A model generated the notes under the pieces. The model did not search any database and had not been told where the DNA came from. It saw only the letters and a program-made list of their open reading frames with translations. The position numbers were made by a program, and so were the translations under genes. DNA of 64,000 nt from an uncultured Lactobacillales bacterium. GTDB taxonomy: Bacteria > Pseudomonadota > Alphaproteobacteria > CAAHEQ01 > UBA3637. The stretch lies in the NCBI GenBank assembly GCA_964414185.1, contig CAYPVK010000002.1:82296-146295 (forward strand). Direction: 5' to 3'. Shown one piece after another: positions 3,994-61,199 of this stretch (position 1 is its first letter; each line of letters starts with the position of its first letter).

Positions 3994-6426
3994 ATGACAG
4001 ATGCAGGCGTATTTTCGATGTTGGCGCAAAGCGCCTCGTCCTTTTCCACTTTGGTAGCCGTTTTCGGCGTCGGCGCGGCTATGCTGATTATGGCCGTGTT
4101 TGTGACCAAATTGGGCGATATTATTTTGCCTAAGCCCAAAGAAACGCGTGTATCGGATTTTTTGCCGTTTTCCAAGTTGGATGAAGACGGTGCGACGATT
4201 CATATGCGCAACGGGTCTTTGGCGCGCGTATTTGAAGTCAAAGGCGCTGATACGACGTTGTTAATGCCCGAAGACCGCGCCCAATTGGCCGAGGCGCGCA
4301 AGCGGTGGGTTGATTCGATGGCCGAATTGGAAATTGTATCGCGCGTTATTACGATACGCGAACGTGTGCCGTTATTTGAAAAAGAAGCGTTTCGCGACAG
4401 CAAGCTTTTGCGCACCATTTCCGAATTATGGCTGCGCGCTTTGCACCGTATTTTCCACAACCGCCATTATATCGTGTTGTCGGTCAACGACCGCAAAACG
4501 GCCATGAAAGATTTGGTGCAAGCCAGCAATGCCTTGACGGCTATTTTGGATATGTATGAACCGGTTTTGATTTCCGAAAAAACGCCGAACCGCCACAACG
4601 ACAAATCGCCGTTTTGGCTGTTTGCAAAGCTGCTCAGCCCGCTTTCAAACCCGAAACCGATTGTGCATGGGGAACAGGGCGAATATTTAAACGCGTTGTT
4701 GACATCGGATTATATCCATTTTACCAAAGATGAAGGCATCATTAAATTCATTTCGGGCACGAAAGAAAAAATGGCGATATGCATGGGCATTCGCAAACCC
4801 GGCGATTTTATGGACGAACAAATGGTTGCCGATATTATCAGCATTGATTGCGAAGTGACCGTTTGCCATAATATTAAGGCTATTCCGAATGTCAAAGCCA
4901 ACTTTTTGCTGATGCAACAACGGCGTATGGCATATTTGACGACCTTTTCGCAAAACGTGCAACAACAATATGATACCGCGTTGGAATGGATGGACCAATC
5001 CGATGCGGACGGTCAAACGTTGAACGAATATGCGATGAGCGTGTTTATTTTCGGCGATTCGAAAGAAGAATTGAATTTCGGGCAAGAAGAAGTCGAAAAA
5101 ATCTGCCGCTTGCACAATGTGACGCCGGTGCGTGACGGATGGGCGGCGCAAGCGACGTTTTTTGCGCAATTCCCGACCTATGAAGTTTATCCGCGTACGT
5201 TTATGTATTTATCGCGTGTGGTTGCGTGCGGCGTGTGTATTGACAAAACCGCCGAAGGGCGCCAAAAATCGGATTGGGGCCCGGTGCCGTTGTCTTATTT
5301 CAGGACGATTACCGGCACGCCTTATGCGTTCCAATTCCACGTGTCCGAAGAACCGTACGGCGTGGCGCATACCGCTTTAATCGGGCCGACGGGTCAAGGT
5401 AAAACGACGTTTTTCTCATTCATGGCGGGGCAATCGATGCGTATTCCCGATTTACGCACGTATTTCTTTGACCGCAACAACGGCGCCAAAGTCTTTGCTT
5501 TGATGCAAGGCGCCCCTTACGTCAAATTTGACGGCGGTGCCGAATCGGTGTCGCTCAATCCGTTGGCCGTACCCGATACGCCGGATAATCGCGCGTTCTT
5601 GCGTACGTGGATTCGCGATATCACGGGCGGTACGGATGCCGTTTCCGAACAAGAAATCGCCCGCGCCGTCACGACTGCGTTTGATTATTTAAAACCGTCG
5701 GAAAGGCTGCTTAAAAACCTGTACAAAGCGTGTTTTGCGCCGAACGGGTATATGCGCACCGAATTGTTGCGCTGGGTTAATGACGACCAATACGGGCGCG
5801 TGTTTAATTCGCCGACCGATAATTTGGATTTGGAACACCGCTATATGGCGTTTGATTTTACGACGATTTTCCAAGACGGCGTTTTGGCGCCGGCGGTAAT
5901 CAGTTACATCATGCACCGTATTCATACGCTTGCCACCGCAACGGGCAATCCGAACTTGATTATGATGGATGAAACGGCGCCGATGTTGGAACACCCGATG
6001 TTTCGCGAACAATTTATTGTGGGTTTGCGCGAAGGGCGTAAAAAACGCCAAGCTTTCCTGTGCGCTTTCCAACAGCCGCGGTTTTTGGATGACAACGGTC
6101 TCGGCGACGTGATTCGCGGGCAATGCCAAACGGTGATATTCTTCCGCAATCCGCAAGCGAACCCGTCCGATTATGCGACATGGAATTTAACGCCCAGAGA
6201 GATGAATTTCATCATGGGCAAAGAATTCGCCGACCATAAATACGCAATTTTGGTCAGCCGCCCCGCCATTCACGAATCCGTCATTTTGGACATTGATTTA
6301 AGCGGGTTGGGCCCGTATTTGAAAATTTATTCGTCGGGTAACAAATCCGTGTTGTTGGCCGAACAGCTGTCCCGCCAAATCAGCGATACCGATGCGTTGG
6401 TACAAGCGTATTTGGAACGCGCGTAA
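3994..6426 (+). CDS. virB4: Type IV secretion system ATPase VirB4/TrbE/CagE
   Basis: 810 aa with an N-terminal TM segment, a Walker A motif (GPTGQGKTTFFSFM) and a Walker B motif (LIMMDETAP). The overall architecture is that of a VirB4. Confidence 0.9.
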   Translation: MTDAGVFSMLAQSASSFSTLVAVFGVGAAMLIMAVFVTKLGDIILPKPKETRVSDFLPFSKLDEDGATIHMRNGSLARVFEVKGADTTLLMPEDRAQLAEARKRWVDSMAELEIVSRVITIRERVPLFEKEAFRDSKLLRTISELWLRALHRIFHNRHYIVLSVNDRKTAMKDLVQASNALTAILDMYEPVLISEKTPNRHNDKSPFWLFAKLLSPLSNPKPIVHGEQGEYLNALLTSDYIHFTKDEGIIKFISGTKEKMAICMGIRKPGDFMDEQMVADIISIDCEVTVCHNIKAIPNVKANFLLMQQRRMAYLTTFSQNVQQQYDTALEWMDQSDADGQTLNEYAMSVFIFGDSKEELNFGQEEVEKICRLHNVTPVRDGWAAQATFFAQFPTYEVYPRTFMYLSRVVACGVCIDKTAEGRQKSDWGPVPLSYFRTITGTPYAFQFHVSEEPYGVAHTALIGPTGQGKTTFFSFMAGQSMRIPDLRTYFFDRNNGAKVFALMQGAPYVKFDGGAESVSLNPLAVPDTPDNRAFLRTWIRDITGGTDAVSEQEIARAVTTAFDYLKPSERLLKNLYKACFAPNGYMRTELLRWVNDDQYGRVFNSPTDNLDLEHRYMAFDFTTIFQDGVLAPAVISYIMHRIHTLATATGNPNLIMMDETAPMLEHPMFREQFIVGLREGRKKRQAFLCAFQQPRFLDDNGLGDVIRGQCQTVIFFRNPQANPSDYATWNLTPREMNFIMGKEFADHKYAILVSRPAIHESVILDIDLSGLGPYLKIYSSGNKSVLLAEQLSRQISDTDALVQAYLERA

Positions 6427-7396: not shown

Positions 7397-7816
7397 TCAT
7401 TCGGTATGATGGTTTTCGGCGGTGTTTGTTTTTAAGGCATTTTCGCCGTTAATTTTGATATTGTCCGAAACTTTTTTTTCATCGGCATCAATGGCGGGAG
7501 TTTGCAAAACACAAACTTCATACGGTATGTTCGGTTCAATGGTTCGGTCGGTTTGGTTATCGATAATCATTAACCGCCCCGCGCAGCATTGGTGTGCCAC
7601 TTTAACGGTTGTTTTTTCGGCATCGGTTTCGGATTCGATTAAATTCCACACATGCCCGAGCGCATCGCAAAAACGGGCAAACGCGCGGTATAATTCGTTG
7701 TCGGACGATGTATGATTCCGCCCTTTAAGGTATATACTTTTCCCATCAAGTGTGATATATTTTTTTGCAATTTTGATACGCGGTTTTATAGCCCGTGTTT
7801 TTGTTGATTTCGGCAT
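7397..7816 (-). CDS. Hypothetical protein with a basic N-terminus
   Basis: 139-aa ORF convergent with rlmA. No recognisable motif, but coding-like composition. Confidence 0.45.
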   Translation of the reverse strand: MPKSTKTRAIKPRIKIAKKYITLDGKSIYLKGRNHTSSDNELYRAFARFCDALGHVWNLIESETDAEKTTVKVAHQCCAGRLMIIDNQTDRTIEPNIPYEVCVLQTPAIDADEKKVSDNIKINGENALKTNTAENHHTE

Positions 7817-8180: not shown

Positions 8181-8194
8181 AATATTTAAAAAAA

Positions 8195-8220
8195 AGCACC
8201 GTTTAAACGGTGCTTTTTTA
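8195..8220. terminator. Rho-independent bidirectional terminator
   Basis: agcaccgttt/aaacggtgct forms a perfect 10-bp stem, flanked by an A-run and a T-run. Confidence 0.75.
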
Positions 8221-8260
8221 AATGCCGTTGCGTTGTCGGGGCTGCGGTCGGAAATTTTGT

Positions 8261-8821
8261 TTATAAACTGTGAGATGCTTCGAAATTTTGCAAATTCGCC
8301 GGCAACGGTTTGCCGATTATTTTTTTGGGCGGTTGTTCCGCCGGCGGCACGGATTCCAAAATGGCCGTGTTTTCGCCTGTGTCCATGTTATGTATGACGG
8401 CTTTGATTTTAAAATAGTGTTGTGTTTGCGGATGATAAGCCGATTTAGGTTGTTTTGGTATTTTGGTTGTTTTTTCGGGGAAAATCCAATCTTGAATTTT
8501 TCTTTCCAAAATAACGCTTGTCGTACTGCCGATGGCAAAAAATGCCAAAGCCGATACCCCATACAAAAACATATGCTTTGATTTTAAAAAACATTGCCAT
8601 GATTCGCCGTTACATCCCAAAGGCGTTATTTTTAAAATTTTATGTATCAACGCTTCGAATTTATTCGGCCGTTCGGGCTTTTTTATATCGCATGCGGTGT
8701 GATTTTTTAAACAACCCGCACAAAAATTCGTATTTTTTTCGGTGTGTGTCGGCATTTGTTTTCCTTTGCAAATATACCTTTTATTTAGGGCAAAGGCGCG
8801 CAATTCGTCAAGCAATGCCAT
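8261..8821 (-). CDS. Hypothetical single-pass membrane protein with an N-terminal Cys cluster (CxGC...C...GCNG...C), possibly a zinc-finger or anti-sigma-like protein
   Basis: 186 aa. A cytoplasmic Cys-rich N-terminus is followed by a TM helix (MFLYGVSALAFFAIGSTTSVIL) and a Pro/Lys-rich C-terminus. It is the last gene of a leftward operon. Confidence 0.5.
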   Translation of the reverse strand: MALLDELRAFALNKRYICKGKQMPTHTEKNTNFCAGCLKNHTACDIKKPERPNKFEALIHKILKITPLGCNGESWQCFLKSKHMFLYGVSALAFFAIGSTTSVILERKIQDWIFPEKTTKIPKQPKSAYHPQTQHYFKIKAVIHNMDTGENTAILESVPPAEQPPKKIIGKPLPANLQNFEASHSL

Positions 8822-8859
8822 ACTATTTGATTTTTCGGCAAGAATGTTTTTTGACGGCG

Positions 8860-9957
8860 TTAATGTTCGATAACCTTAATTTCGTCAATAAACAAAATGC
8901 CGCCTTGCGCATCCGGAACCATTTGGCGGCGAACAATCCGACCGTTGGGCAGGTATAAGAAATCTTCATGCGTTTTGGTCAGCCTTGAAAATAAATCTTT
9001 TTGTTCTTTTTTATAGTGGGAGAAATCTTTAACTTGAGGCAAACAACCCTTTTCTTGCAATTTATTTAAAAATTCTTCGTAAAACGGTTCGCGCCTGACC
9101 CAAGCGGTATCCAATTTCCACAATTCGATAAAATGTTTGTTGGCGAAAACCAAACGCGTGTTGGCATCAAACAAACATACGGGGCATGGCAATTCTTTCA
9201 GCGCGTTCAAATGTGCGATTCGTGCGTCTTCCAATAAAGCCTTTAAACCTTGTTCGGTGGTTTTGTCCTGCCCGTATTTAAGGTGGTAAAAATTGTTTAA
9301 AGATGTTTCAAATTTTAATTCCTGCCAATGTAAATCGGCGATGGCATCGGGTTCTTGCGTCAATGTTTTGTTGCCGAAAATCAAATCCCCTTTTTCGTTT
9401 TCGATCATCAACGGGAACGGTAATCGGTTCAATGCGCCCGAAATGATTTCTTTTTCATCGGATAACTGTTTGTATTTTAATGTGCTTTGTGTGAATTGCG
9501 CCGTTGTGTACGAAATGTTTTCAAACCATAAAATGTATGCTTTTTGTTCGGGATACGGTGTTTGAAGCGGCGCGCCTGAAACCTTTAAATGCATCAGGTT
9601 TAACAGGTTTTGTACCACCAATTCAAAGGAAGTGCCGTTTTGTTTCAAACGGGTAAATTTTTCCGTCAAATCCCGCTTTGACCCCGCCGACAAAGTGTTT
9701 AGAATAATTTCGAAATCCGATGATGTATCGACAATATTCAACATCAGGCATAGCCGTCTGGAACACAAGGATCGAGTTATTTTCGGTGCCTCGATTTGCA
9801 AATAAAATCCCATCGGCGCGCCGGATAGGACATCTTCCAAATGATTGGCGCGTTCAATGTGCAATGCGGCGCGGCGTTTGTATTTTTCAATAATAATGAT
9901 GAACAAAATAAAAGCGACAAGGCACAGTGTATAAAACGAAGCCAATAAAATGCTCAT
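8860..9957 (-). CDS. Membrane-anchored PAS-domain sensor protein lacking a histidine-kinase transmitter
   Basis: It has an N-terminal TM segment (LLASFYTLCLVAFILFIIII) and a PAS-like segment (LPCPVCLFDANTRLVFANKHFIELWKLD). The protein ends with no H-box, N-box or G-box. It is translationally adjacent to comM. Confidence 0.6.
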   Translation of the reverse strand: MSILLASFYTLCLVAFILFIIIIEKYKRRAALHIERANHLEDVLSGAPMGFYLQIEAPKITRSLCSRRLCLMLNIVDTSSDFEIILNTLSAGSKRDLTEKFTRLKQNGTSFELVVQNLLNLMHLKVSGAPLQTPYPEQKAYILWFENISYTTAQFTQSTLKYKQLSDEKEIISGALNRLPFPLMIENEKGDLIFGNKTLTQEPDAIADLHWQELKFETSLNNFYHLKYGQDKTTEQGLKALLEDARIAHLNALKELPCPVCLFDANTRLVFANKHFIELWKLDTAWVRREPFYEEFLNKLQEKGCLPQVKDFSHYKKEQKDLFSRLTKTHEDFLYLPNGRIVRRQMVPDAQGGILFIDEIKVIEH

Positions 9958-11469
9958 TTATACCCCCTTGCGAATCGGTTTGCGATAAGATAACGCTTCG
10001 GCGACATGATGCCGTTTCGTCGTTTCGGAAAGTTCCATATCGGCAATCGTGCGCGCAACGCGCATAATGCGGTGGTATCCGCGCCCGGACAGCATTAATT
10101 TTTCGGCCGCTTCAATCAACAAGTTGCGCGCGGCGTCTTCCATACGGGCAATTTCTTCCAAAAAGGCACCGTCGGCTTCGGCATTTTTTGAAATTTTGAC
10201 ATTTTTAAAACGGCTTTCGGAAAAAGCAAGCGCCCGTTCGACACGTGCCGAAATGTCCTTGGATGATTCGCTGCCGCCGGGTCGTCCCAATTCCCACGGC
10301 GCAACGGCCGGCACGTCGACGTGTAAATCAATGCGGTCGAACATCGGTCCCGAAATTTTGGATTGGTATTCTTCGGCGCATTTCGGCGCCCGCGAACATT
10401 CATGCCCCGGCATGCCCAAATATCCGCAGCGGCACGGGTTCATAGCCGCAATCAATTGGAATTTTGCCGGATATGTTACGTGCAAATTGGCGCGCGATAC
10501 CGTAACGGTGCCCGTTTCAAGCGGCGCGCGCAACGCTTCCAAAGTCGAACGGTTAAATTCGGGCAGTTCGTCCAAAAATAAAATGCCTTTGTGAGCTAAC
10601 GAAATTTCCCCCGGCCTGGCACGCATGCCGCCGCCGACCATTGCGGGTGTCGAAGCACTGTGGTGCGGGTCGCGAAACGGGCGATGTGTAATGAGTTTCC
10701 CGTCTTTTAACAATCCGGCGACGGAGTGGATATTGCTGACTTCCAAAATATCTTCCATGCTAAGCGGCGGCATAATCGACGGCAAACGGGCCGCCAACAT
10801 TGATTTGCCCGATCCCGGCGGTCCGATCATCAAAACGTTGTGTCCGCCGACAGCGGCAATTTCCAATGCGCGTTTGGCCGATTCTTGGCCCTTGATTTCT
10901 TTAAAATCCAAATGGTGGGTTTGCCGCGGCAAAGTGCCGCATTCGGGAGCATGCAACAATTGATGCCCCTTTAAATGGTTAATCAATGATAACAAAGACG
11001 ATGGGGCGATAATATTGTCATTCCCCGACCAGGCGGCTTCGGAACCTTGTTCGGCGGGACAAATAAACGACATGCCGAAACGGTTGGCGGCAATGGCGGC
11101 GGGTAAAACGCCCGTAACCGAACGAATTGAACCGTCCAAGCCCAATTCCCCCATCATCAACGTATTTGAAATGCTTGCGGGGTCAATGATACCCATGGCC
11201 GCCATTAAAGCCATTGTAATGGGCAAATCGTAATGCGTGCCTTCCTTAATCACGTCGGCGGGTGCTAAATTGACCGTTATCCTTTCGGCCGGCAAAGATA
11301 AACCGATGGACGTCAATGCGGCGCGGATACGTTCTTTGCTTTCGGCAACGGCTTTATCGGCCAATCCCACAATTGTAAAAGCAGGCAATCCGCTCATAAT
11401 GCGCACTTCGACATCAATTTTTAAAACGTCAATCCCCGAAAACGCAACTGTATGGGTTGAACCGAGCAT
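9958..11469 (-). CDS. comM: Mg-chelatase-like AAA+ ATPase ComM/YifB
   Basis: 503 aa with a Lon-like N-terminal domain, a Walker A motif (GPPGSGKSM) and an ILFLDELPEF motif. The C-terminal region is typical of the YifB family. Confidence 0.9.
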   Translation of the reverse strand: MLGSTHTVAFSGIDVLKIDVEVRIMSGLPAFTIVGLADKAVAESKERIRAALTSIGLSLPAERITVNLAPADVIKEGTHYDLPITMALMAAMGIIDPASISNTLMMGELGLDGSIRSVTGVLPAAIAANRFGMSFICPAEQGSEAAWSGNDNIIAPSSLLSLINHLKGHQLLHAPECGTLPRQTHHLDFKEIKGQESAKRALEIAAVGGHNVLMIGPPGSGKSMLAARLPSIMPPLSMEDILEVSNIHSVAGLLKDGKLITHRPFRDPHHSASTPAMVGGGMRARPGEISLAHKGILFLDELPEFNRSTLEALRAPLETGTVTVSRANLHVTYPAKFQLIAAMNPCRCGYLGMPGHECSRAPKCAEEYQSKISGPMFDRIDLHVDVPAVAPWELGRPGGSESSKDISARVERALAFSESRFKNVKISKNAEADGAFLEEIARMEDAARNLLIEAAEKLMLSGRGYHRIMRVARTIADMELSETTKRHHVAEALSYRKPIRKGV

Positions 11470-12255
11470 TTACCACCGTGGAATGTTGTTGTTGTCGCGA
11501 TAGCGGCGCGACGGATAATCCGTGTCGGACGGAATGTCGTTATATCCCGCAAAGTGCGGTGCTGCGCGCAATTGGACATACCCTTGGGATTCATATGATC
11601 CGATGCAATTATAGTCGGTAAAATCACACCGTACCAACTCGCGTGTCATCGGGTTTTGCAAAACAACCGCCGAACCCGTGTTTGCAGCATTTTGTGTTGT
11701 TGCATCCGGTGCAGTTGCATTTGCCGAATTCATTTCCGCCCCGCCCGTATTTTGTGCGGCCGTATTCGGTGTAACCGTATTTTGCATGATTGCGTTTTGA
11801 TCGGCTTGCGCATACGGATAATACGGCATCGCATTCGGATTTTGTATCATTTGCGGATAGCCGGTGTTTTGTCCCGCAATATTTTGTGTATTTTGCGGTG
11901 CGTACATCGGTACGGGAATTTGGTTTTGTGCCGTTTGATATTGGCCTGTCACAGTTTGCGTTTCATAAGCAACGCCGGGTTGTTGTACATATTGTAAATC
12001 GGCAACCGTGCCGTATGCCGGCCCGAAATAATCGTCTTGAATGGTATAAGCGGGCGTTATCGCATAAGTGGTTTTTTGCGTTGTTTGAGTATTTGTATTC
12101 GTATTTGTTGCAACCGATTGTACTTCTTTCGGCATTGCAACGGGGTTGTGAGATGCACTGTTGTCAATTTTGACGGTAACCGGCGGTTGCATGGGTTGTG
12201 TTTGCAAAGTACATCCGGCTGCGATAAACAACGAAAGCAAAAGAAATTTTTTCAT
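11470..12255 (-). CDS. Lipoprotein with a long Q/N/T/P-rich low-complexity region
   Basis: A signal peptide (MKKFLLLSLFIAAGC) carries a lipobox Cys, with an aagga ribosome-binding site before the ATG at 12255. About 200 aa is dominated by Q, N, T, P and Y. A Cys-containing C-terminal domain follows. The gene overlaps the comM start. Confidence 0.6.
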   Translation of the reverse strand: MKKFLLLSLFIAAGCTLQTQPMQPPVTVKIDNSASHNPVAMPKEVQSVATNTNTNTQTTQKTTYAITPAYTIQDDYFGPAYGTVADLQYVQQPGVAYETQTVTGQYQTAQNQIPVPMYAPQNTQNIAGQNTGYPQMIQNPNAMPYYPYAQADQNAIMQNTVTPNTAAQNTGGAEMNSANATAPDATTQNAANTGSAVVLQNPMTRELVRCDFTDYNCIGSYESQGYVQLRAAPHFAGYNDIPSDTDYPSRRYRDNNNIPRW

Positions 12256-12410
12256 ATGGGGTATCCTTTTTTTGTACAAGCAGTTTAATTTTTAGTCAGT
12301 ATAGCAAATGTAATTTGAAAAAAAAAGCTTTATTTACATTTTTTTAATCATTTCGGCGTTTTTTCGGGGCAGTTGTTGTGTTCTTTTGAAAATCCGATGT
12401 GTCCTATATT

Positions 12411-12440
12411 AAAAAACTCCTTGTTTTTAAGGAGTTTTTT
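12411..12440. terminator. Rho-independent terminator downstream of the flavodiiron gene (bidirectional hairpin)
   Basis: aaaaactcctt-gttttt-aaggagtttttt: an 11-bp stem with T-runs on both sides. Confidence 0.7.
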
Positions 12441-12482
12441 ATCATGTCGACTCATTGGACATATATCGGATGAACGGCGGTT

Positions 12483-14832: not shown

Positions 14833-17800
14833 ATGATCCCACAAATGTTGAAAGACAAGCGCTTTTTGCCCTTGCTCATCCCCAATTTTTTATCCGCTTT
14901 AAACGATAATTTTATTCGGTATGTTTTTTTGTTCTTTGTAACGTATAAAATGACGCAAGGCAGTGCTTTGTTAATTATTTCCGCCGTTATTTTGTATGCT
15001 TTGTCGTTCAGTTTTGCATCCGTTTTTGCCGGCCAAATCGCCGATCGCATGTCTAAGACGAAATTTATGCAAAGCATTCGCATTTCGGAAATCGCCGTTA
15101 TGATGATGGCATTGATCAGTTTGTCATTGGATTCCAGATGGTTATTCATGTTGATTGTTGCGTCCATGGGGATTGTATCGGCATTTTTACGTGTCGGCAA
15201 TAATTCGATTTTGCCTGTGCTTGTTGCCGAAAAAAAATTGAATATGGGCAACGTTTGGTTGAAAATTTCTTCAACATTCGGCGCTTTGGCCGCAGTCGGT
15301 TTTTTGACATCCATCTTAAAATTTGATGCCGCTTATTACGTTGTTACGTTCATCGCATTTGCTTTGTCGGCGGTCAGCTTTTTAATTACCTTAAAATTGC
15401 CGATGACCGATGCGGCGGATTCGGAAGCACCGTTTTATAAAAATCCTCAGAAAGCTTTCGGTGTCGTGGCCGATTATTTGAAAAACAAGTATGATATTTG
15501 GTTGTATATTGTCGGCATTTCATGGTTTTGGATTTTGGCAACCGTCGTAGCGGTTTTTTCCGCCGAATACGGCCGAGCCGTTTTGAATGCCAGATGGTCC
15601 GTCGTGATGTATTTGTCGAGCATTTTCGGGCTCGGATATATCATCGGTGCGTTTTTATATGCCAAAGTCACGCATAAAAACAATATAGGCACTTGGACGG
15701 CGTTGGTATCGTTTTTGATTTCCTTGTTCATGTTCGATTTGATTATTGCCAGCACCGATGTGGTGCATGACCCGTCTCAAAAAGCCATTACCGTTGCCAA
15801 AATGTTCACAACCGATTTTGATTATTGGCGCATCATGGTTGACGTATTGGTATTGGGCGGCTTGTCGGCATTCTTCATTATTCCGTTTTATACGCTGTTG
15901 CAAATCAAATCCGCACATAAAATGCTCGGCCGTGTAATAGCTTTTTCGTCGATGATTAACGCCATAGCGGTTATGGGTGCGTTCTTGGTTGTGCTCAGCT
16001 TTCGGTCGCTCGGGTTTGATTTGTTGACCGTTTTGGCATTGTTTGCGGCGTTCAATTTGCTGATGGCGGTTTATATGATACGGTTGTTGCCGCTTGCGTC
16101 CCGTCGGCAATTATTCAAAAAGATTTTTCGTACATTGTTTAATGCCCGTATAGAAGGGTTGGAAAATTTGGCGATTGCCGGACCGCGCGCGTTGATTATT
16201 CCGAACCATTCGTCTTATTTGGACGTCTTGTTGATTTCGGCGTTTATTGACAAGAAAATTTTGTTGGCGATTGACGAAAAATTAATGCAACGTCCGTTTA
16301 TTAAGTTCATGACGAATTTGGTCGATGTGAAACCGATGGATGCGGTCAGCCCCTTTGCCGTTAAAGAAATGTCCGAAGAACTTAAAAAAGACCAACTGTG
16401 CATGATTTTGACGGAAGGGTTTATCGAAGGCGGCAACACGCGCATGAAAATTTACGAAGCACCCGCTTTGATGGCGGTCAAAGGGAATGCGCCGATTTTG
16501 CCGATTCGCATCGACGGCGCCAAGCACGCAATTTTTTCACGCGTGTTGAAAAACAAAGCGGATTTCCGTTGGTTCCCCGAAGTTTCAATTAATATTTTGG
16601 AACCCGTTTCTTTTGATTATAATGAAAAAGAATTGACGACTCGTGAAATCCGCGAACAATCCAGTTCCAAATTGTATAACATTATGTTTGACATGGTGTT
16701 TGACAGCTATAAAACGGATATGTCAATATTCACGGCTATCGCACGTTCCATGAAAATGGCCGGTCGTTTTAAACCCGTCATGGAAGATACGGCGCGGCAT
16801 CCCGTCAGGTTTATGGGCGTATTTTTGAAATCGTTTGTTTTGGGGACATTGATTAACCGTGCAATTCCGAATGACAAATATGTGGGCGTGATGGTACCGA
16901 CATCCAATACATGCGCTTTAACGGTATTCGGGCTGCAAGCTTATAACAAAGTACCGTGCATGATTAATTTTTCATCGGGTCCGAAACAAGTTATCGCGAC
17001 ATGTAAAACTGTTGGTTTAAAAACGGTCGTTACGGCCAAAAAAGTTGTGATGTTGGCTAAATTGGAACCGCTGGTTGAAGAAATCAAAGCTGCCGGCATC
17101 AATATTTTGTATTTGGAAGATTTAAAAGATTTGCTTAAATTTTCCGACAAATTGTTTGGAATTTGGAGTGCTTTTTGTCCCGAATCCGCTTATAAAAAAA
17201 CATCGGGCGGCAAGGTGAAAGGGTCCGATACGGCGGTTGTGTTGTTTACATCCGGTTCGGAAGGTATGCCTAAGGCCGTATTTTTGTCACATAGCAACAT
17301 TTTGTCAAATTGTTATCAAGTCCCGTCCCGTTTTGATGTGTTGCCGAACGATGTGTTTTTGAACTGTTTGCCGATGTTTCATTCGTTCGGATTGGGGGCC
17401 GGTATGATTTTGCCGTTGTTAATGGGCGTTAAAACGTTTTTATATCCGACACCGTTGCATTATCGCATTATCCCCGAAATTTGCGCATCCGTCAAAGCAA
17501 CGATTTTCTTTGGTACGGATACATTCCTGGCGGGTTATGCCAAATGTGCGAATCCGTATGATTTCAACAGTTTGCGCATTGTTGTGGTCGGTGCCGAAAA
17601 ATTAAAGGATGAAACGCGCAAAATTTGGTCGGAAAAATTCGGCGTGCGTATTTTGGAAGGGTACGGAGCAACCGAATGTTCTCCGTTTGTTTCCGTCAAC
17701 ACATTCTTACATCAAAAGCTCGGTTCCGTCGGCCGTTTGCTGCCCGGCATGAGTTACGATTTGCGTGAAGTCCCCGGTATCAAGGAAGGTAAAGAATTGT

Positions 17801-18258
17801 TGATTAAAGGTCCGAATATCATGCAAGGGTACATGCGTTATGAAAAACCGCTTGAACTCGACCCGCCGAAAGACGGTTGGTATGATACGGGCGATATCGT
17901 TGAAATTGACAAAGACGGCTTTATCTTTATCAAAGGGCGTTCGAAACGTTTTGCCAAAGTCGGCGGTGAAATGGTGTCATTGCTCAGCGTTGAAACGGTT
18001 ATTCAAAAAAAATGGCCCGGCGTCATTGCGGGGGCGGTCAACATCCCGGATAAGAAAAAAGGCGAACAAATCGTCTTGATTACGACCAGCAAAGACATTA
18101 ATAAAGAAGAGTTGATTTTGGCGTTTAAGGCAGCCGGCGTTACCGAATTGGGTATTCCGTCGAAAATTATCGTTACGGATAATCCGCCGCTTTTGGGTAC
18201 CGGAAAATTTGACTATGTTCGCGCCAAAGAATTGGCAAATGCCGAAGTAAACGGTTAA
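14833..18258 (+). CDS. aas: Tripartite fusion of lysophospholipid transporter LplT (MFS), 2-acyl-GPE acyltransferase and acyl-ACP synthetase (LplT-Aas)
   Basis: 1141 aa. The N-terminal ~400 aa is a polytopic MFS-like domain. It is followed by PlsC acyltransferase motif I (PNHSSYLDVLL, HxxxxD) and then an AMP-binding domain (TSGSEGMPKAV, GYGATECSP). Confidence 0.8.
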   Translation: MIPQMLKDKRFLPLLIPNFLSALNDNFIRYVFLFFVTYKMTQGSALLIISAVILYALSFSFASVFAGQIADRMSKTKFMQSIRISEIAVMMMALISLSLDSRWLFMLIVASMGIVSAFLRVGNNSILPVLVAEKKLNMGNVWLKISSTFGALAAVGFLTSILKFDAAYYVVTFIAFALSAVSFLITLKLPMTDAADSEAPFYKNPQKAFGVVADYLKNKYDIWLYIVGISWFWILATVVAVFSAEYGRAVLNARWSVVMYLSSIFGLGYIIGAFLYAKVTHKNNIGTWTALVSFLISLFMFDLIIASTDVVHDPSQKAITVAKMFTTDFDYWRIMVDVLVLGGLSAFFIIPFYTLLQIKSAHKMLGRVIAFSSMINAIAVMGAFLVVLSFRSLGFDLLTVLALFAAFNLLMAVYMIRLLPLASRRQLFKKIFRTLFNARIEGLENLAIAGPRALIIPNHSSYLDVLLISAFIDKKILLAIDEKLMQRPFIKFMTNLVDVKPMDAVSPFAVKEMSEELKKDQLCMILTEGFIEGGNTRMKIYEAPALMAVKGNAPILPIRIDGAKHAIFSRVLKNKADFRWFPEVSINILEPVSFDYNEKELTTREIREQSSSKLYNIMFDMVFDSYKTDMSIFTAIARSMKMAGRFKPVMEDTARHPVRFMGVFLKSFVLGTLINRAIPNDKYVGVMVPTSNTCALTVFGLQAYNKVPCMINFSSGPKQVIATCKTVGLKTVVTAKKVVMLAKLEPLVEEIKAAGINILYLEDLKDLLKFSDKLFGIWSAFCPESAYKKTSGGKVKGSDTAVVLFTSGSEGMPKAVFLSHSNILSNCYQVPSRFDVLPNDVFLNCLPMFHSFGLGAGMILPLLMGVKTFLYPTPLHYRIIPEICASVKATIFFGTDTFLAGYAKCANPYDFNSLRIVVVGAEKLKDETRKIWSEKFGVRILEGYGATECSPFVSVNTFLHQKLGSVGRLLPGMSYDLREVPGIKEGKELLIKGPNIMQGYMRYEKPLELDPPKDGWYDTGDIVEIDKDGFIFIKGRSKRFAKVGGEMVSLLSVETVIQKKWPGVIAGAVNIPDKKKGEQIVLITTSKDINKEELILAFKAAGVTELGIPSKIIVTDNPPLLGTGKFDYVRAKELANAEVNG

Positions 18259-55979: not shown

Positions 55980-58829
55980 ATGAAATTGAAAAATTTGATT
56001 CAAAATACGGATGAAAAATGCGGTGCCGTTGAAATTGACAATATTACATCCAATTCAAACGATGTCCGCGCGGGTACTTTGTTTGTCGCGCTGAAAGGCG
56101 TTAAAACCGACGGTGCGGCTTTTATTCCCGATGCAATCACAAAAGGGGCAGCAGCCGTGTTGGCCGACCGTGAGGTGGCTTCGGATATTCCCGTTGTCCG
56201 TGTTTTGAATGCACGGGTGGCGATGGGGCAAATTGCCGATAAATTGTATCCGTCCGACGGATTAATCAAGGCAGCCGTTACCGGTACGAACGGGAAAACG
56301 TCTTGTGTCAATTATGTTGCCGCATTGTTAAACGGTTTGGGTATTTTATCGGCCGCTTTCGGCACCATCGGCGTGCAATCGCCCGTATTGAATATCGCAG
56401 GATCAATGACAACGCCCGATGCCGTAACCGTGCATAAAATGTTACATGAATTGAATGATGCGGGCGTAAAAGTCGTCGCGATGGAAGCTTCCAGCCATGG
56501 GTTGGACCAAGACCGTTTGGTGGGGATTGATTTTGCGGTGAGCGCTTTTACAAACATAACGCAAGACCATTTGGATTATCACGGCGATATGGCGGCTTAT
56601 TTCAACGCCAAAATGAAATTGTTTTGCGAACGTACGGCCGCGAACGGCATTGTCGTTTTAAATGCCGATATCCCTGAATTTGAAACGATGCATGCACAAA
56701 TTTTGCAAAAAGGGTTGCGTGTTATTTCTTACGGCGTGAACGGTAACGAATTGAAGTTATTGTCGCGTACGGTTACGCCGACAGGGCAAACGATTGAAGT
56801 AAACGCATTCGGAAAAAAATATATGTGCGATTTGAACATCGTCGGCGATTTCCAAGTATCAAACGTGCTGTGTGCCGTCGGCATGTGTATCGGTTTAAAC
56901 GATATTTATAAACTGTTCGGCGAAACAACCGAGGCGCAATTTATTGATAAAATTTTTGCCTTACTGCCAACTTTGCAAGCGCCCGCGGGACGGTTGGAAT
57001 GTGTGGGACATTTAAAAAACGGCGCGACCGTGTATGTCGATTATGCGCATACGCCCGACGCTTTGGAACGCGTGTTAAAAACAATGCGCCCGCATACACG
57101 GCATGAATTGGTGTGCGTGTTCGGTTGCGGCGGTGACAGAGATAAAACCAAACGCCCGTTGATGGGGGCAATCGCGCAAAAATATGCCGACCGCGCCTAT
57201 TTGACCGACGATAATCCGCGCACCGAAAATGCCGCCGATATCCGCGCACAAATCAAAGCGGCGGCACCTCAGTCCATTGAAATCGGCGACCGCCACATCG
57301 CGATTGATGAAGCCGTACGTTCGTTGCAAGAGGGCGACGTGCTGGTTATTGCCGGCAAAGGGCATGAAACGGGGCAAAAAATCGGAGATACCGTTTATGC
57401 GTTTGATGATAAAATCGAAGCACAACTTGCCATAATGCGTGTCGAACAAACGCCGCTGTGGACTTATGACGAATTGCGGGCTTGTTTGGGGGACGCCGTA
57501 CCGTCGGGGGCGTGCGCTTTCGGCATTTCGATTGATACGCGTACGTTAAAAATCGGTGATATGTATGTTGCCCTTCGCGGCGAACGGTTGGACGGACATG
57601 ATTTCGTTGCCGCCGCGGTGCATAAAGGGGCAAGCGTTTGTTTGGTTGACCATCAAATTGCGAGTGTGCCCGAATGTAAACAAATCATTGTGACAGATGT
57701 TCAACCGGCGTTTGAAAAAATGGGGGCGTTTGCCCGTAACCGCAGCGACGCCGCCTTTATCGAAATTACCGGCAGTTCGGGCAAGACAACGACAAAAGAA
57801 ATGTTGAAAACCGCGTTGACAGCGCAAGGAAATACTTATGCCACGGCGGGCAATTTAAACGGCAAAATCGGCGTGCCGTTGACATTGACACGCATGGGGC
57901 GCGATATGCAATATGCAATTATCGAAACAGGCATGGACCATTTGGGGGATTTGACGAACTTGTCAAAAATGGTGCGCCCGAACGTATCGATTATCACGAT
58001 GGTGGGGCCGGCTCATTTGGCATATTTTAAAGACGTTGCCCAGATTGCCGAAGCGAAAAGCGAAATTTTTATCGGCCAGGAAAAAGACGGTACGGCTATC
58101 ATCAATGCCGACAGCCCTTATTGCGCTTTTTTGCGCGATAAAGTCGTTTCAAACGGTATTCGCAATATTATTTCTTTCGGCAAAAATGAACAAGCCGGTT
58201 TCAGATTGTTAAACGCGATGCCGAACGGTGATAAAACGATGGTCAATGCAATGGTCGGCGGTGAAAAAATATCTTATTGCATCGGATTTTTGGGCGAACA
58301 TTTTGCGATGGATTCTTTGGCGGTTTTGGCAGCGGTTGATGCCCTTGGGGCCAGCGTGAAACAAGCGGCTGCCGATTTGTCGCAAACATCGGCGGTTATC
58401 GGGCGCGGCGCGGTGCAAAAAATCACGTTGGCGGACGGGCGTTCGTACGATTTAATCGACGATTCTTATAACGCCAACCCGGCGTCGATGGCGGCATCCG
58501 TCGGTACGTTGGGCATGCATGAAAATACCGTTAAAATCGCACTGCTCGGCGATATGAAAGAATTGGGCGGCGGCGAAATCGAAATGCATACGAATTTATT
58601 ACAAAATTTATTGGACAATCATATTTCAAAGGTTTATGCTGTAGGGACTTTGATGAAGCATTTGTTTGATATATTGCCGTCCGATATGAAAGGGGCATGG
58701 CGGCAAACGCCCGAAGAAATGGCGGGTGTTGTTTTAAACGAAATGCCTGACGGTGCCGTGTTGTTGGTTAAATCTTCCCAAAGCACGGGTTTGAACAAAA
58801 TTGTTCCAACTTTAAAAGGGATGCGATAA
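55980..58829 (+). CDS. murEF: In-frame fusion of MurE (UDP-MurNAc-tripeptide synthetase) and MurF (UDP-MurNAc-pentapeptide synthetase)
   Basis: 949 aa. The MurE part has a P-loop (TGTNGKTS), and its end (...AGKGHETGQKIGDTVYAFDDKIEAQLAIM) is typical. With no stop between them, a MurF N-terminus follows (~57440; ...SIDTRTLKIGDMYVALRGERLDGHDF...ITGSSGKTTTKEML). Confidence 0.85.
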   Translation: MKLKNLIQNTDEKCGAVEIDNITSNSNDVRAGTLFVALKGVKTDGAAFIPDAITKGAAAVLADREVASDIPVVRVLNARVAMGQIADKLYPSDGLIKAAVTGTNGKTSCVNYVAALLNGLGILSAAFGTIGVQSPVLNIAGSMTTPDAVTVHKMLHELNDAGVKVVAMEASSHGLDQDRLVGIDFAVSAFTNITQDHLDYHGDMAAYFNAKMKLFCERTAANGIVVLNADIPEFETMHAQILQKGLRVISYGVNGNELKLLSRTVTPTGQTIEVNAFGKKYMCDLNIVGDFQVSNVLCAVGMCIGLNDIYKLFGETTEAQFIDKIFALLPTLQAPAGRLECVGHLKNGATVYVDYAHTPDALERVLKTMRPHTRHELVCVFGCGGDRDKTKRPLMGAIAQKYADRAYLTDDNPRTENAADIRAQIKAAAPQSIEIGDRHIAIDEAVRSLQEGDVLVIAGKGHETGQKIGDTVYAFDDKIEAQLAIMRVEQTPLWTYDELRACLGDAVPSGACAFGISIDTRTLKIGDMYVALRGERLDGHDFVAAAVHKGASVCLVDHQIASVPECKQIIVTDVQPAFEKMGAFARNRSDAAFIEITGSSGKTTTKEMLKTALTAQGNTYATAGNLNGKIGVPLTLTRMGRDMQYAIIETGMDHLGDLTNLSKMVRPNVSIITMVGPAHLAYFKDVAQIAEAKSEIFIGQEKDGTAIINADSPYCAFLRDKVVSNGIRNIISFGKNEQAGFRLLNAMPNGDKTMVNAMVGGEKISYCIGFLGEHFAMDSLAVLAAVDALGASVKQAAADLSQTSAVIGRGAVQKITLADGRSYDLIDDSYNANPASMAASVGTLGMHENTVKIALLGDMKELGGGEIEMHTNLLQNLLDNHISKVYAVGTLMKHLFDILPSDMKGAWRQTPEEMAGVVLNEMPDGAVLLVKSSQSTGLNKIVPTLKGMR

Positions 58830-59911
58830 TGCTGTATTTACTTTCGTTTTATGCCAATGAATTTAATCTTTTGAATCTGTTCCGTTATATTTCGTTCCGA
58901 ACGGGCGGTGCGATTTTTACCGCATTTTTTATCTGCTTGTTCATGGGGCCGCATTTTATTCGGTGGCTTAAGAAAAAACAAGGCGAAGGGCAACCTATCC
59001 GCACCGACGGGCCACAAACGCATTTGGCAAAAAAAGGAACACCGACCATGGGCGGATTGATGATTTTGATATCGGCCGCCGCTGCGACGTTATTGTGGGC
59101 AAATTGGTTTAATCCGTATGTTTGGATGTTGTTATTTGTCTTGCTCGGATTCGGTTTGGCGGGCATGTTGGACGATTATTTGAAATTAACCAGGCGCAAT
59201 CCGAATGGCGTGTCGTCACGGCAAAAATTATTTTTGCAATTGGTTGTTTCGATTATCGCATGCGTATGGATGATTATGCTTGAACAAGGGCCGATGGGTA
59301 CCACATTGACCGTGCCGTTTTTTAAAAACTTGTTCATCGACTTGGGATATTTTTATGTACCGTTCGTGTTGATTGTACTTGTCGGTGCTTCAAATGCCGT
59401 TAATTTGACAGACGGTTTGGACGGGTTGGTCAGCATTCCCGTTATTATGTCGGTATTGGTATTTATGGTAATAGCCTATCTTGTCGGTCGTATCGATTAC
59501 GCATCGTATTTAAAAGTTCATTATGTATTGGGAGCAGGGGAAATGTCCATTTTTTGCGGTGCCGTTATCGGAGGCGTTATGGGCTTTTTGTGGTTTAACG
59601 CGCATCCGGCGCAAGTATTTATGGGCGATACGGGTTCTTTGGCTTTAGGCGGCGTGTTGGGAGCTTTGTCCGTTGCAACGAAACACGAAATTGTTTTGGC
59701 GATTTCGGGCGGCGTTTTTGTTGTTGAAGCTTTATCGGTTATGATTCAGGTCGGTTCTTATAAATTGCGTGGCAAACGCGTATTTTTGATGGCGCCGATA
59801 CATCACCATTTTGAAAAAAAAGGATGGAGCGAAACAACCGTTGTCGTTCGTTTTTGGATTGTATCCATTTTGTTGGCTTTGTTGGCTTTGTCTACATTAA
59901 AATTGAGGTAG
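58829..59911 (+). CDS. mraY: Phospho-N-acetylmuramoyl-pentapeptide transferase
   Basis: 360 aa and polytopic, with the MraY motifs NAVNLTDGLDGL and HHHFE. Confidence 0.93.
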   Translation: MLYLLSFYANEFNLLNLFRYISFRTGGAIFTAFFICLFMGPHFIRWLKKKQGEGQPIRTDGPQTHLAKKGTPTMGGLMILISAAAATLLWANWFNPYVWMLLFVLLGFGLAGMLDDYLKLTRRNPNGVSSRQKLFLQLVVSIIACVWMIMLEQGPMGTTLTVPFFKNLFIDLGYFYVPFVLIVLVGASNAVNLTDGLDGLVSIPVIMSVLVFMVIAYLVGRIDYASYLKVHYVLGAGEMSIFCGAVIGGVMGFLWFNAHPAQVFMGDTGSLALGGVLGALSVATKHEIVLAISGGVFVVEALSVMIQVGSYKLRGKRVFLMAPIHHHFEKKGWSETTVVVRFWIVSILLALLALSTLKLR

Positions 59912-59914
59912 CGC

Positions 59915-61036: not shown

Positions 61037-61199
61037 GGAAATGGTTTTAAAACGGCAATTGGTGTATATGTCGGTTTGTAAGATTTTGTTTCTTGCCGTT
61101 TTAAAATCATTTTTTGAAGCGGCGGCGGCATGTCCGTACGGTCCGATTACGGTATTTATGCCCGTCAAAAGCATAAAGTATTTAAAAGGATAAAAAGAT

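What the first reader, a model, noticed from the sequence alone, without database searches (positions are those of the whole stretch)
8261..12255. Leftward four-gene operon: Q/N-rich lipoprotein - ComM - PAS sensor without a kinase - Cys-cluster membrane protein
Four minus-strand genes are packed with 0-38-bp gaps or overlaps. The lipoprotein overlaps the comM start, and the PAS gene abuts the comM stop. This couples an AAA+ ComM/YifB ATPase to a membrane-anchored PAS sensor that has no transmitter domain, and to a small zinc-finger-like membrane protein. ComM is usually a stand-alone gene, so this arrangement is unusual. It may be a signalling module that controls ComM activity, or a decayed two-component system.
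Basis: partly seen in the sequence, partly recalled or inferred. Interest (0 to 1): 0.5.

Follow-up and report, generated by a model that had tools for sequence, protein, structure and literature searches.

The report
Kinase-less DivL in a comM operon
The "PAS sensor without a kinase" is a shortened DivL, the alphaproteobacterial cell-cycle pseudokinase; its gene sits in a conserved three-gene operon with a lipoprotein gene and the DNA-recombination helicase gene comM, so this is a new lineage variant of a known kind, not a broken two-component system.

Summary
The four minus-strand genes exist as described. The lipoprotein/comM and comM/PAS junctions are exact TAA|ATG abutments. A promoter-like box lies upstream of the unit and strong terminator hairpins flank it.

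The 365-aa PAS protein is not a decayed sensor. Its family aligns end to end with the N-terminal half of ~750-870-aa proteins (hhalign 100 %, E 7e-66). That half comprises the membrane anchor, PAS-A, PAS-B with a ~60-column gap, and PAS-C. Those long proteins carry the DivL hallmark: 16 of 31 have Tyr in the H-box, and DivL (4Q20) is their top PDB hit.

The short form is a single deep clade under purifying selection (dN/dS 0.06-0.08). Kinase-less "short DivL" is already known in Rhodobacterales.

What is new is a more extreme truncation in uncultured, apparently gut-associated Alphaproteobacteria. Also new is a lipoprotein-comM-divL operon, seen in 10 of 11 loci, including a 538-aa four-PAS sister clade. 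Long DivLs lie elsewhere, in a tsaE-addB context.

In Rhodobacter capsulatus, comM and short divL belong to one CtrA-dependent co-expression module. The fourth, Cys-rich gene is a fast-evolving, lineage-specific add-on. Whether comM and divL are functionally coupled remains inferred.

The parts
12297..12308 (-). Promoter-like extended -10 box (TTTGCTATACTG) about 40 nt upstream of the lipoprotein start codon
   Evidence: Eight loci carry the related TTTG(C/T)TATA(C/G)T-type element in the same position, preceded by an A-tract/T-tract. It occurs once in the window, against 0.07 expected. Function as a promoter is inferred.
11470..12255 (-). Lipoprotein gene (261 aa): signal peptide and lipobox Cys15, disordered Q/N/T/P-rich linker, small C-terminal domain with 2 invariant Cys, invariant C-terminal IPRW
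   Evidence: ORF. ATG at 12255 has an AAGGA Shine-Dalgarno. The family has 40 proteins with no Pfam match. Alignment A5 gives the invariant residues C15, C210, C217 and I258-W261. AF2 model: residues 27-192 below pLDDT 50, residues 195-232 at about 90.
9958..11469 (-). comM/yifB (503 aa), intact AAA+ Mg-chelatase-like helicase
   Evidence: TIGR00368 547.5 bits (cut-off 362.4). Pfam ChlI, Mg_chelatase and Mg_chelatase_C. Walker A GPPGSGKS, Walker B LFLDEL and a Cys4 cluster CRCG...C...C are visible. dN/dS is 0.085 against L004.
8860..9957 (-). Short, kinase-less DivL homologue (365 aa): N-terminal TM anchor, PAS-A, truncated PAS-B, PAS-C; the protein ends at the last strand of PAS-C
   Evidence: hhalign of A1 against the long family A3: 100 %, E 6.8e-66, colinear over 26-365 versus 31-412 of 815. 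AF2 pLDDT 84.5 with three PAS-like modules. Foldseek hits to multi-PAS proteins. In the long family, 16 of 31 have H-box Tyr and the top PDB hit is DivL 4Q20. dN/dS is 0.06-0.08.
8261..8755 (-). Lineage-specific small membrane protein (164 aa from the ATG at 8755; the ORF is open to 8821): cytoplasmic Cys-rich N-terminus, one TM segment, about 80-aa C-terminal tail
   Evidence: The only homologue seen is in L002, at 52 % identity. It is absent from L003-L011 and L013. No hits in Pfam, NCBIfam, PADLOC, PHROGs or viral contigs.
8188..8219 (-). Intrinsic-terminator-like hairpin ending the unit. Flanking A and T runs make it bidirectional; it is shared with the convergent DUF378 gene.
   Evidence: Stem GCACCG/CGGTGC followed by T8. 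dG -16.8 kcal/mol, z -5.66.
12411..12434 (-). Terminator-like hairpin of the upstream flavoprotein-like gene; it marks the upstream boundary of the unit
   Evidence: Stem CTCCTT/AAGGAG followed by T6. dG -14.0 kcal/mol, z -7.24.

Best explanation
The region is a conserved three-gene operon, lipoprotein - comM - short divL, plus a lineage-specific fourth gene.

The 365-aa PAS protein derives from DivL, the membrane-tethered multi-PAS pseudokinase that sets the kinase/phosphatase balance of CckA in Alphaproteobacteria. It keeps the membrane anchor, PAS-A, a strongly conserved remnant of PAS-B, and PAS-C. It has lost PAS-D and the whole DHp/CA module, which is the part that reads DivK~P in Caulobacter.

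Inferred mechanism. It works like the short DivL of Rhodobacterales: a cytoplasmic, membrane-tethered PAS scaffold that contacts CckA through PAS-PAS interactions and so tunes CtrA phosphorylation, without DivK input.

Co-transcription from one conserved promoter, with abutting stop and start codons, ties its dosage to that of ComM. ComM is a recombination and branch-migration helicase. In Rhodobacterales, comM is CtrA-regulated and falls in the same co-expression module as short divL.

Shown: gene order, boundaries, homology to DivL, absence of the kinase, purifying selection and conserved synteny. Inferred: the CckA interaction and any physiological link to ComM or the lipoprotein.
For: Homology.
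- A profile search of the family against 1.84 billion representatives first returns about 14 short relatives, then hundreds of 750-870-aa proteins, each matched in three stretches.
- hhalign gives 100 %, E 6.8e-66, colinear from the TM anchor to the end of PAS-C, with a ~60-column gap in PAS-B.
- The long family has NVSYELRxPL (Tyr in place of the phospho-acceptor His) in 16 of 31 members and His in only 3.
- Its best PDB match is Caulobacter DivL 4Q20, at 147.6 bits against 118 for the next hit.

The short form is functional.
- All 50 close homologues are 280-382 aa long and none has a kinase domain.
- dN/dS is 0.082 (window vs L002) and 0.060 (L003 vs L004).
- The short forms make a single clade in a neighbour-joining tree.

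Operon.
- The triad is present in the window, L002-L006, L009-L011 and L013, usually with gaps of -4 to +3 nt.
- A conserved promoter-like box lies upstream of the lipoprotein gene and terminator hairpins flank the unit.

Literature.
- Short DivL lacking the pseudo-HK is common in Rhodobacterales, where DivK is absent (PMC9430884).
- DivL PAS domains B-D signal to CckA PAS-B (bioRxiv 10.1101/323444).
- comM is CtrA-regulated in D. shibae (PMC6473078).
- comM and rcc00042 (the short DivL) share one CtrA-dependent RcGTA co-expression module in R. capsulatus (PMC4158056).
Against: - No cckA, chpT, ctrA or divK gene, and no HisKA, HATPase_c or receiver domain, was found among the 54 window ORFs scanned against Pfam. 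Whether the pathway exists in this organism is therefore unknown.
- No TTAA-N7-TTAA CtrA box lies upstream of the operon.
- In Caulobacter, DivL lacking PAS-A and PAS-B no longer affects CckA. Here PAS-B is half deleted, so the interaction surface may have changed.
- Tight gene packing is general in this genome, so co-transcription alone is weak evidence of a shared function.
- In L007 the short divL is not next to comM.
- I could not determine whether these genomes also keep a full-length DivL at the ancestral tsaE-addB locus. If they do, this gene is a paralogue with possibly different function.
- The long family's identity as DivL rests on the H-box signature and the PDB ranking. I did not compare its PAS region directly with Caulobacter DivL.
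Confidence: 0.6

Rival explanations
1. Neutral synteny. The protein is a short DivL, but its position behind comM and the lipoprotein gene is a historical accident of a rearrangement in a compact genome. The three products have unrelated functions and merely share a promoter.
For: About half of the same-strand gene pairs in the window are 20 nt apart or less. Long DivLs lie in a quite different context, tsaE-addB. L007 has the short divL without comM. No regulatory motif links the genes to CtrA or LexA.
Against: The triad and its promoter-like box survive across DivL identities from 98 % to below 40 %, and across two DivL length classes, while the flanking genes change on both sides. Stop and start codons abut or overlap in most loci. 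comM and short divL are co-expressed in R. capsulatus (PMC4158056).
Confidence: 0.3
2. One reading: the membrane-anchored PAS protein is a dedicated sensor that directly controls ComM ATPase/helicase activity, possibly with the lipoprotein as a periplasmic input. This would be independent of the CckA-CtrA pathway.
For: The comM-PAS gene junction is conserved and translationally coupled in 10 of 11 loci. The PAS protein has no output domain of its own.
Against: No precedent is known to me. The protein's nearest relatives are DivL pseudokinases that are not linked to comM. L007 separates the two genes. The lipoprotein faces the periplasm, whereas the PAS protein has essentially no periplasmic part: 2-3 residues precede its TM helix.
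Confidence: 0.07
3. A decaying gene: the PAS ORF is a truncation pseudogene of a histidine kinase on its way to being lost.
For: It is homologous to the N-terminal half of a longer kinase-like protein. PAS-B carries a ~60-column gap in that alignment.
Against: dN/dS is 0.06-0.08. Length is constant at 344-382 aa across at least 24 clusters at 50 % identity. There are 36 invariant and 44 nearly invariant columns, including the PAS-B remnant YGQDKTTE. The model is confident, with pLDDT 84.5.
Confidence: 0.03

Closest known systems
Short DivL of Rhodobacterales (e.g. R. capsulatus rcc00042, D. shibae Dshi_3433; Westbye et al. 2018; PMC9430884, PMC4046655, PMC6473078)
   Same: It is a DivL homologue made only of the membrane-proximal PAS region, with the pseudo-histidine-kinase module gone. 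It is typically annotated as hypothetical or as a PAS protein. In Rhodobacter it regulates CtrA, and its gene is co-expressed with comM.
   Different: This one comes from an uncultured, apparently gut-associated alphaproteobacterial clade. It has three PAS modules, with PAS-B cut to a four-strand remnant, in 365 aa. It is embedded in a lipoprotein-comM-divL operon, whereas in R. capsulatus comM (rcc00460) and divL (rcc00042) are at separate loci. I could not test whether the truncation is shared with, or independent of, the Rhodobacterales event, because I identified no Rhodobacterales sequence in my set.
Canonical DivL (Caulobacter crescentus CCNA_03598, 769 aa; PDB 4Q20 for the HK module)
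   Same: N-terminal membrane tether followed by tandem PAS domains. The alignment is colinear from the anchor to the end of PAS-C.
   Different: It lacks PAS-D, the DHp with its Tyr-for-His H-box, and the CA domain, so it cannot bind DivK~P the way Caulobacter DivL does. PAS-B is partly deleted.
ComM/YifB (TIGR00368; hexameric branch-migration helicase of natural transformation)
   Same: Full-length, with all three Pfam modules, Walker motifs and the Cys4 cluster intact.
   Different: Nothing unusual in the protein itself. Only its conserved operon partners are unusual.
HK-less four-PAS DivL forms (538-562 aa) found here (P0101/P0253, P0107, P0134, P0120 clusters)
   Same: They also lack the kinase. 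The P0101/P0253 clade has the same lipoprotein-comM-divL operon (L013).
   Different: They keep PAS-D and a full PAS-B. The P0107 form lies at the ancestral tsaE-addB locus, so kinase loss has occurred more than once.

Membership tests
DivL (canonical pseudokinase) | N-terminal membrane anchor followed by tandem PAS domains homologous and colinear with DivL's sensor region | tested here: met
   hhalign of A1 against A3: 100 %, E 6.8e-66, residues 26-365 versus columns 31-412. TM helix and three PAS modules in the AF2 model.
DivL (canonical pseudokinase) | C-terminal DHp/CA module with Tyr replacing the phospho-acceptor His | tested here: not met
   The protein ends at the last strand of PAS-C. 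No HisKA or HATPase_c hit. The long relatives do have the module, with Tyr in 16 of 31.
DivL (canonical pseudokinase) | Modulates CckA and responds to DivK~P | not testable with these tools
   Needs biochemistry or genetics. No cckA or divK in the 64-kb window.
Short DivL (Rhodobacterales type) | DivL-homologous PAS region with the pseudo-HK module absent, maintained as a functional gene | tested here: met
   dN/dS 0.06-0.08.
Short DivL (Rhodobacterales type) | Genome lacks DivK but has CckA-ChpT-CtrA | not tested
Short DivL (Rhodobacterales type) | Common descent with the Rhodobacterales truncation | not tested
   No identified Rhodobacterales DivL sequence was available. At least two independent kinase losses are seen among the uncultured lineages.
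Two-component sensor histidine kinase | HisKA/DHp plus HATPase_c transmitter | tested here: not met
   None is encoded elsewhere in the window either.
ComM/YifB | Score above the TIGR00368 cut-off; ChlI, Mg_chelatase and Mg_chelatase_C architecture | tested here: met
   547.5 bits against a cut-off of 362.4. Pfam E-values 5e-39, 3e-95 and 2e-26.
Bacterial lipoprotein | Signal peptide ending in a lipobox with an invariant Cys | tested here: met
   FIAAGC in the window and LAGC, LSGC or LTGC in relatives. Cys15 is invariant in 36 sequences. No dedicated predictor was run.
Zinc-binding anti-sigma factor (ZAS), considered for gene 4 | HxxxCxxC motif and an adjacent ECF sigma-factor gene | tested here: not met
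   The motif is CxxC-x6-C with no His. There is no zf-HC2 hit and no sigma-factor gene nearby.

The most novel reading that the evidence does not exclude
In this clade the CckA modulator DivL has been cut down to a minimal three-PAS membrane scaffold and hard-wired into one transcript with ComM and a periplasmic lipoprotein. The operon would then be a dedicated module that links cell-cycle (CtrA) signalling directly to uptake or recombination of incoming DNA (GTA-like or T4SS-delivered). The short DivL might even have been re-targeted from CckA to ComM.
Probability: 0.12. Interest if true: 0.7.

Novelty: new variant of a known kind. Interest (0 to 1): 0.4.

Why it matters
DivL is a central node of the alphaproteobacterial cell-cycle circuit. 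How it talks to CckA, and which of its domains are sufficient, is still open.

This region offers a naturally minimised DivL: anchor, PAS-A, half of PAS-B, and PAS-C. It is kept under strong selection across a deep clade, which points to the minimal conserved interaction core. It also shows that loss of the DivK-reading pseudokinase is recurrent outside Rhodobacterales.

The operon with comM parallels the CtrA-dependent co-expression of comM and short divL in Rhodobacter. That gives a testable hint that DivL/CtrA signalling and DNA recombination are linked more widely.

For annotation, several hundred proteins now labelled "hypothetical" or "PAS domain" in gut alphaproteobacterial MAGs can be named DivL-like.

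Tried and rejected
- Pfam and NCBIfam on the lipoprotein and gene 4 gave nothing above cut-off. The weak T5orf172 and DUF5651 hits are below threshold.
- PADLOC, PHROGs and a viral-contig scan gave no defence or phage connection.
- Rfam and tRNA scans of the window found nothing.
- CtrA (TTAA-N7-TTAA) and alphaproteobacterial LexA (GTTC-N7-GTTC) boxes: no exact site upstream of the operon. One-mismatch CtrA-like sites occur in several loci but are expected in AT-rich spacers.
- The short-family profile has no PDB sequence match.
- The afdb50 fold library was unavailable.
- Cluster look-ups gave no organism or gene names for the DivL-like proteins, so "DivL" could not be confirmed by annotation.
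- Two key papers, Westbye 2018 and Brimacombe 2015, are not in the held library.
- The small 62-69-aa ORFs downstream of divL in L005, L006, L009 and L010 are too poorly conserved to call a family, and they are unrelated to gene 4.
- The lipoprotein model is mostly disordered (pLDDT 50), so I did not attempt a fold search.
- The pseudogene reading was rejected on dN/dS and conservation.


Full report
**Observation**

The interval 8261-12255 holds four minus-strand ORFs:
- a 261-aa lipoprotein, 11470-12255;
- ComM/YifB, 9958-11469;
- a 365-aa PAS protein, 8860-9957;
- a Cys-rich membrane protein, ORF 8261-8821.

ComM is unambiguous. It scores 547.5 bits on TIGR00368 against a cut-off of 362.4, and it has the ChlI, Mg_chelatase and Mg_chelatase_C domains. 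The PAS protein has one N-terminal hydrophobic helix and a C-terminal PAS_7 hit at 29 bits. It has no HisKA or HATPase_c domain.

The sequence shows TAA|ATG abutments with a 0-nt gap at both internal junctions, so nothing overlaps. The fourth gene probably starts at the ATG at 8755, giving 164 aa. That start has an AAGGAA Shine-Dalgarno and the same length as its only homologue. This leaves a 104-nt spacer.

The unit is bracketed by strong hairpin-plus-T-run structures. One is at 12408-12442 (dG -14.0, z -7.2). The other is at 8186-8222 (dG -16.8, z -5.7).

Tight spacing is common throughout the window. It is therefore weak evidence of coupling.

**What the PAS protein is**

A word-indexed search found 50 homologues. 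All are 280-382 aa long, none has a kinase domain, and identity runs down to 33-41 %. Thirty-seven of them align with 36 invariant columns.

I searched a profile of that alignment against 1.84 billion cluster representatives. It returned about 14 further short proteins, then hundreds of 750-870-aa proteins, each matched in three stretches at E 1e-60 to 1e-35.

Those long proteins consist of a TM anchor, four PAS domains and a weak or degenerate HisKA/HATPase_c module.

Profile-profile alignment of the short family against 31 long ones gives 100 % probability and E 6.8e-66. It is colinear from residue 26 to 365 versus columns 31-412 of 815, with one ~60-column gap inside the second PAS domain. 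The short protein stops exactly where the third PAS domain ends.

The AlphaFold model has pLDDT 84.5. Its parts are:
- a TM/stalk helix, residues 2-46;
- PAS-A, 50-147;
- a linker helix;
- a four-strand PAS-B remnant, 183-230;
- a second linker helix;
- PAS-C, 260-361.

Foldseek matches multi-PAS proteins such as PpsR, FixL PAS-PAS and LOV-PAS.

**Why the long family is DivL**

At the H-box, 16 of 31 long members read NVSYELRxPL. That is Tyr in place of the phospho-acceptor His, the defining DivL feature, and it is identical to the Caulobacter DivL sequence seen in the PDB alignment. Only 3 keep His. The rest have A, S, R, Q, G, C or K.

The best PDB hit for two long members is "Sensor protein DivL" (4Q20). 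For the Magnetospirillum protein it scores 147.6 bits against 118 for the next kinase.

I could not compare the PAS region directly with Caulobacter DivL, because no structure or sequence of that part was available to the tools. Source annotations give only generic names.

**Known biology, from papers**

- DivL's PAS domains B-D communicate with CckA PAS-B. A DivL lacking PAS-A still works, but one lacking PAS-A and PAS-B does not (bioRxiv 10.1101/323444).
- A short DivL lacking the pseudo-HK module is a common trait of Rhodobacterales, where DivK is absent (PMC9430884). D. shibae Dshi_3433 is such a protein and is annotated as hypothetical (PMC4046655).
- The protein here therefore belongs to a known class. 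The specific form, three PAS modules with half of PAS-B deleted, and the lineage are new.

**It is not a pseudogene**

dN/dS is 0.082 (window vs L002, dS 1.0) and 0.060 (L003 vs L004). In a neighbour-joining tree of the shared region, all 344-372-aa proteins form one deep clade. Its neighbours are a 772-aa protein (P0128) and a 513-538-aa clade with four PAS domains and no kinase. This is a rough tree without support values.

Several other 540-562-aa clusters have constant length on long contigs. One of these HK-less forms lies at the ancestral locus (L014). The kinase module has therefore been lost more than once.

**Synteny**

Lipoprotein - comM - short divL occurs in the window, L002 and L003 (partial contigs), L004, L005, L006, L009, L010 and L011. 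It also occurs in L013, the 538-aa clade. There the upstream 324-aa protein is clearly the same lipoprotein family: it has a lipobox, a Q/N/P-rich linker and a C-terminal ...CPVTDDVC...VPRW.

Gaps are mostly -4 to +3 nt. Downstream neighbours differ from locus to locus:
- gene 4;
- a convergent 373-aa gene;
- small ORFs followed by glycosyltransferases;
- groES/EL;
- acpS-relA.

Upstream neighbours differ too:
- the large Aas-like gene, divergent;
- a flavoprotein-like gene;
- an autotransporter;
- an MFS transporter gene followed by a 187-aa ORF.

Only L007 has the short divL without comM. Paralogous glycosyltransferase-like genes take that place.

Long DivLs (L008, L012) and the in-situ HK-less one (L014) instead lie in a context of HTH_3 (or tsaD in L012) | divL - x - SNase - tsaE - (APH - NTP_transferase) - addB. 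The comM-linked copy was therefore relocated or duplicated. I could not tell which.

**Promoter**

When the spacers upstream of the lipoprotein gene are anchored on TATA(C/G)T, they align across seven loci. They share TTTG(C/T)TATA(C/G)T, preceded by an A-tract/T-tract element. L013 has the same layout. In the window the box TTTGCTATACTG occurs only at 12297-12308, against 0.07 expected.

This supports a single conserved promoter for the triad. A TTGACG-N18-TAAATA sequence in the 104-nt spacer could give gene 4 its own start. I read that by eye only.

**The other proteins**

Lipoprotein. The family has 40 members and no Pfam match. It keeps the lipobox Cys, a low-complexity linker and a ~70-aa C-terminal region. 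That region holds invariant C210, D214 and C217, the near-invariant Y221 with G225 (Y226 near-invariant), and a terminal IPRW. The model shows only a small beta-beta-alpha unit, residues 195-232, at pLDDT about 90. The rest is disordered. Its function is unknown. Its topology is periplasmic, whereas the short DivL has no periplasmic part.

Gene 4. It is 52 % identical to its L002 counterpart, against 86 % for the PAS protein. It is absent from all other loci and has no hits in any library. It is a lineage-specific add-on and not part of the conserved unit.

**Mechanism**

Shown:
- a compact operon bounded by terminators;
- an intact ComM;
- a selected, kinase-less DivL homologue anchored in the inner membrane with cytoplasmic PAS domains.

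Inferred:
- it acts on CckA by PAS-PAS contact without DivK input, as the Rhodobacterales short DivL does;
- co-transcription with comM reflects a shared regulatory programme.

Support for the second inference is indirect. In R. capsulatus, comM and rcc00042 (the short DivL) fall in the same 43-gene, CtrA-dependent RcGTA co-expression module (PMC4158056). In D. shibae, comEC, comM and comF are CtrA-regulated (PMC6473078).

Against the inference:
- none of the 54 window ORFs I scanned against Pfam has a kinase or receiver domain;
- there is no CtrA or LexA box upstream;
- gene packing is tight genome-wide;
- L007 is an exception to the synteny.

**Verdict**

The finding is a new variant of a known kind, short DivL, in a conserved and previously undescribed operon with comM. 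Interest is moderate at 0.4.

Noticed in passing
window 55980-58829 (+): A 949-aa ORF in the dcw cluster has two full sets of Mur-ligase domains (two matched stretches each of Mur_ligase, Mur_ligase_M and Mur_ligase_C). It is apparently a MurE-MurF fusion.
   Followed up: no
window 58829-63706 (+): The dcw order here is mraY - ftsW - murG - murC. There is no murD between mraY and ftsW, the gap being only 3 nt. murD must lie elsewhere or be missing.
   Followed up: no
window 7397-7816 (-), compared with L002 2577-3305: The 139-aa ORF is a shortened version of a 242-aa protein in the 86 %-related MAG. The MAG protein carries two CDGSH-type motifs (CxCGxxxxxPFC[DN]GAH). The window copy lacks both motifs and looks like a decaying gene (read by eye).
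   Followed up: partly
window 3994-6426 (+) and 37482-38624 (-): There is a divergent VirB4/TrbE-like ATPase (810 aa; CagE_TrbE_VirB at only 38.8 bits). A T2SSE/VirB11-like ATPase lies 31 kb away among housekeeping genes. Type IV secretion genes are scattered rather than forming one cluster.
   Followed up: no
L008, L012, L014 (long or in-situ DivL loci): DivL in related uncultured Alphaproteobacteria lies in a conserved divL - small ORF - SNase - tsaE - (APH - NTP_transferase) - addB neighbourhood. In L008 and L014 the other side has HTH_3 - metK - trmB - rimP - nusA. The H-box residue is highly variable among these proteins: Y 16, H 3, and A/S/R/Q/G/C/K 12, out of 31.
   Followed up: partly
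window 11470-11484 (-) and homologues in L004-L006, L013: The lipoprotein family ends in an invariant I/V-P-R-W-COOH preceded by N-rich residues. This looks like a C-terminal docking motif, and I know of no described counterpart.
   Followed up: partly
window 14833-18258 (+) and L004-L007, L009, L011: An ~1140-aa MFS - acyltransferase - AMP-binding (Aas-like) gene is the conserved, divergently oriented upstream neighbour of the operon in most loci. In the window and in L009 a flavoprotein-like ODP/metallo-beta-lactamase gene has been inserted between them.
   Followed up: no
L007 2075-5941: Where comM and the lipoprotein gene are missing, the space upstream of short divL holds paralogous genes with no Pfam match. 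Two are full-length (433 and 437 aa). Two adjacent ORFs (214 and 211 aa) together look like a third copy that has been split. The copies share motifs such as LSSYKRPIYL and CKIDDDD.
   Followed up: no
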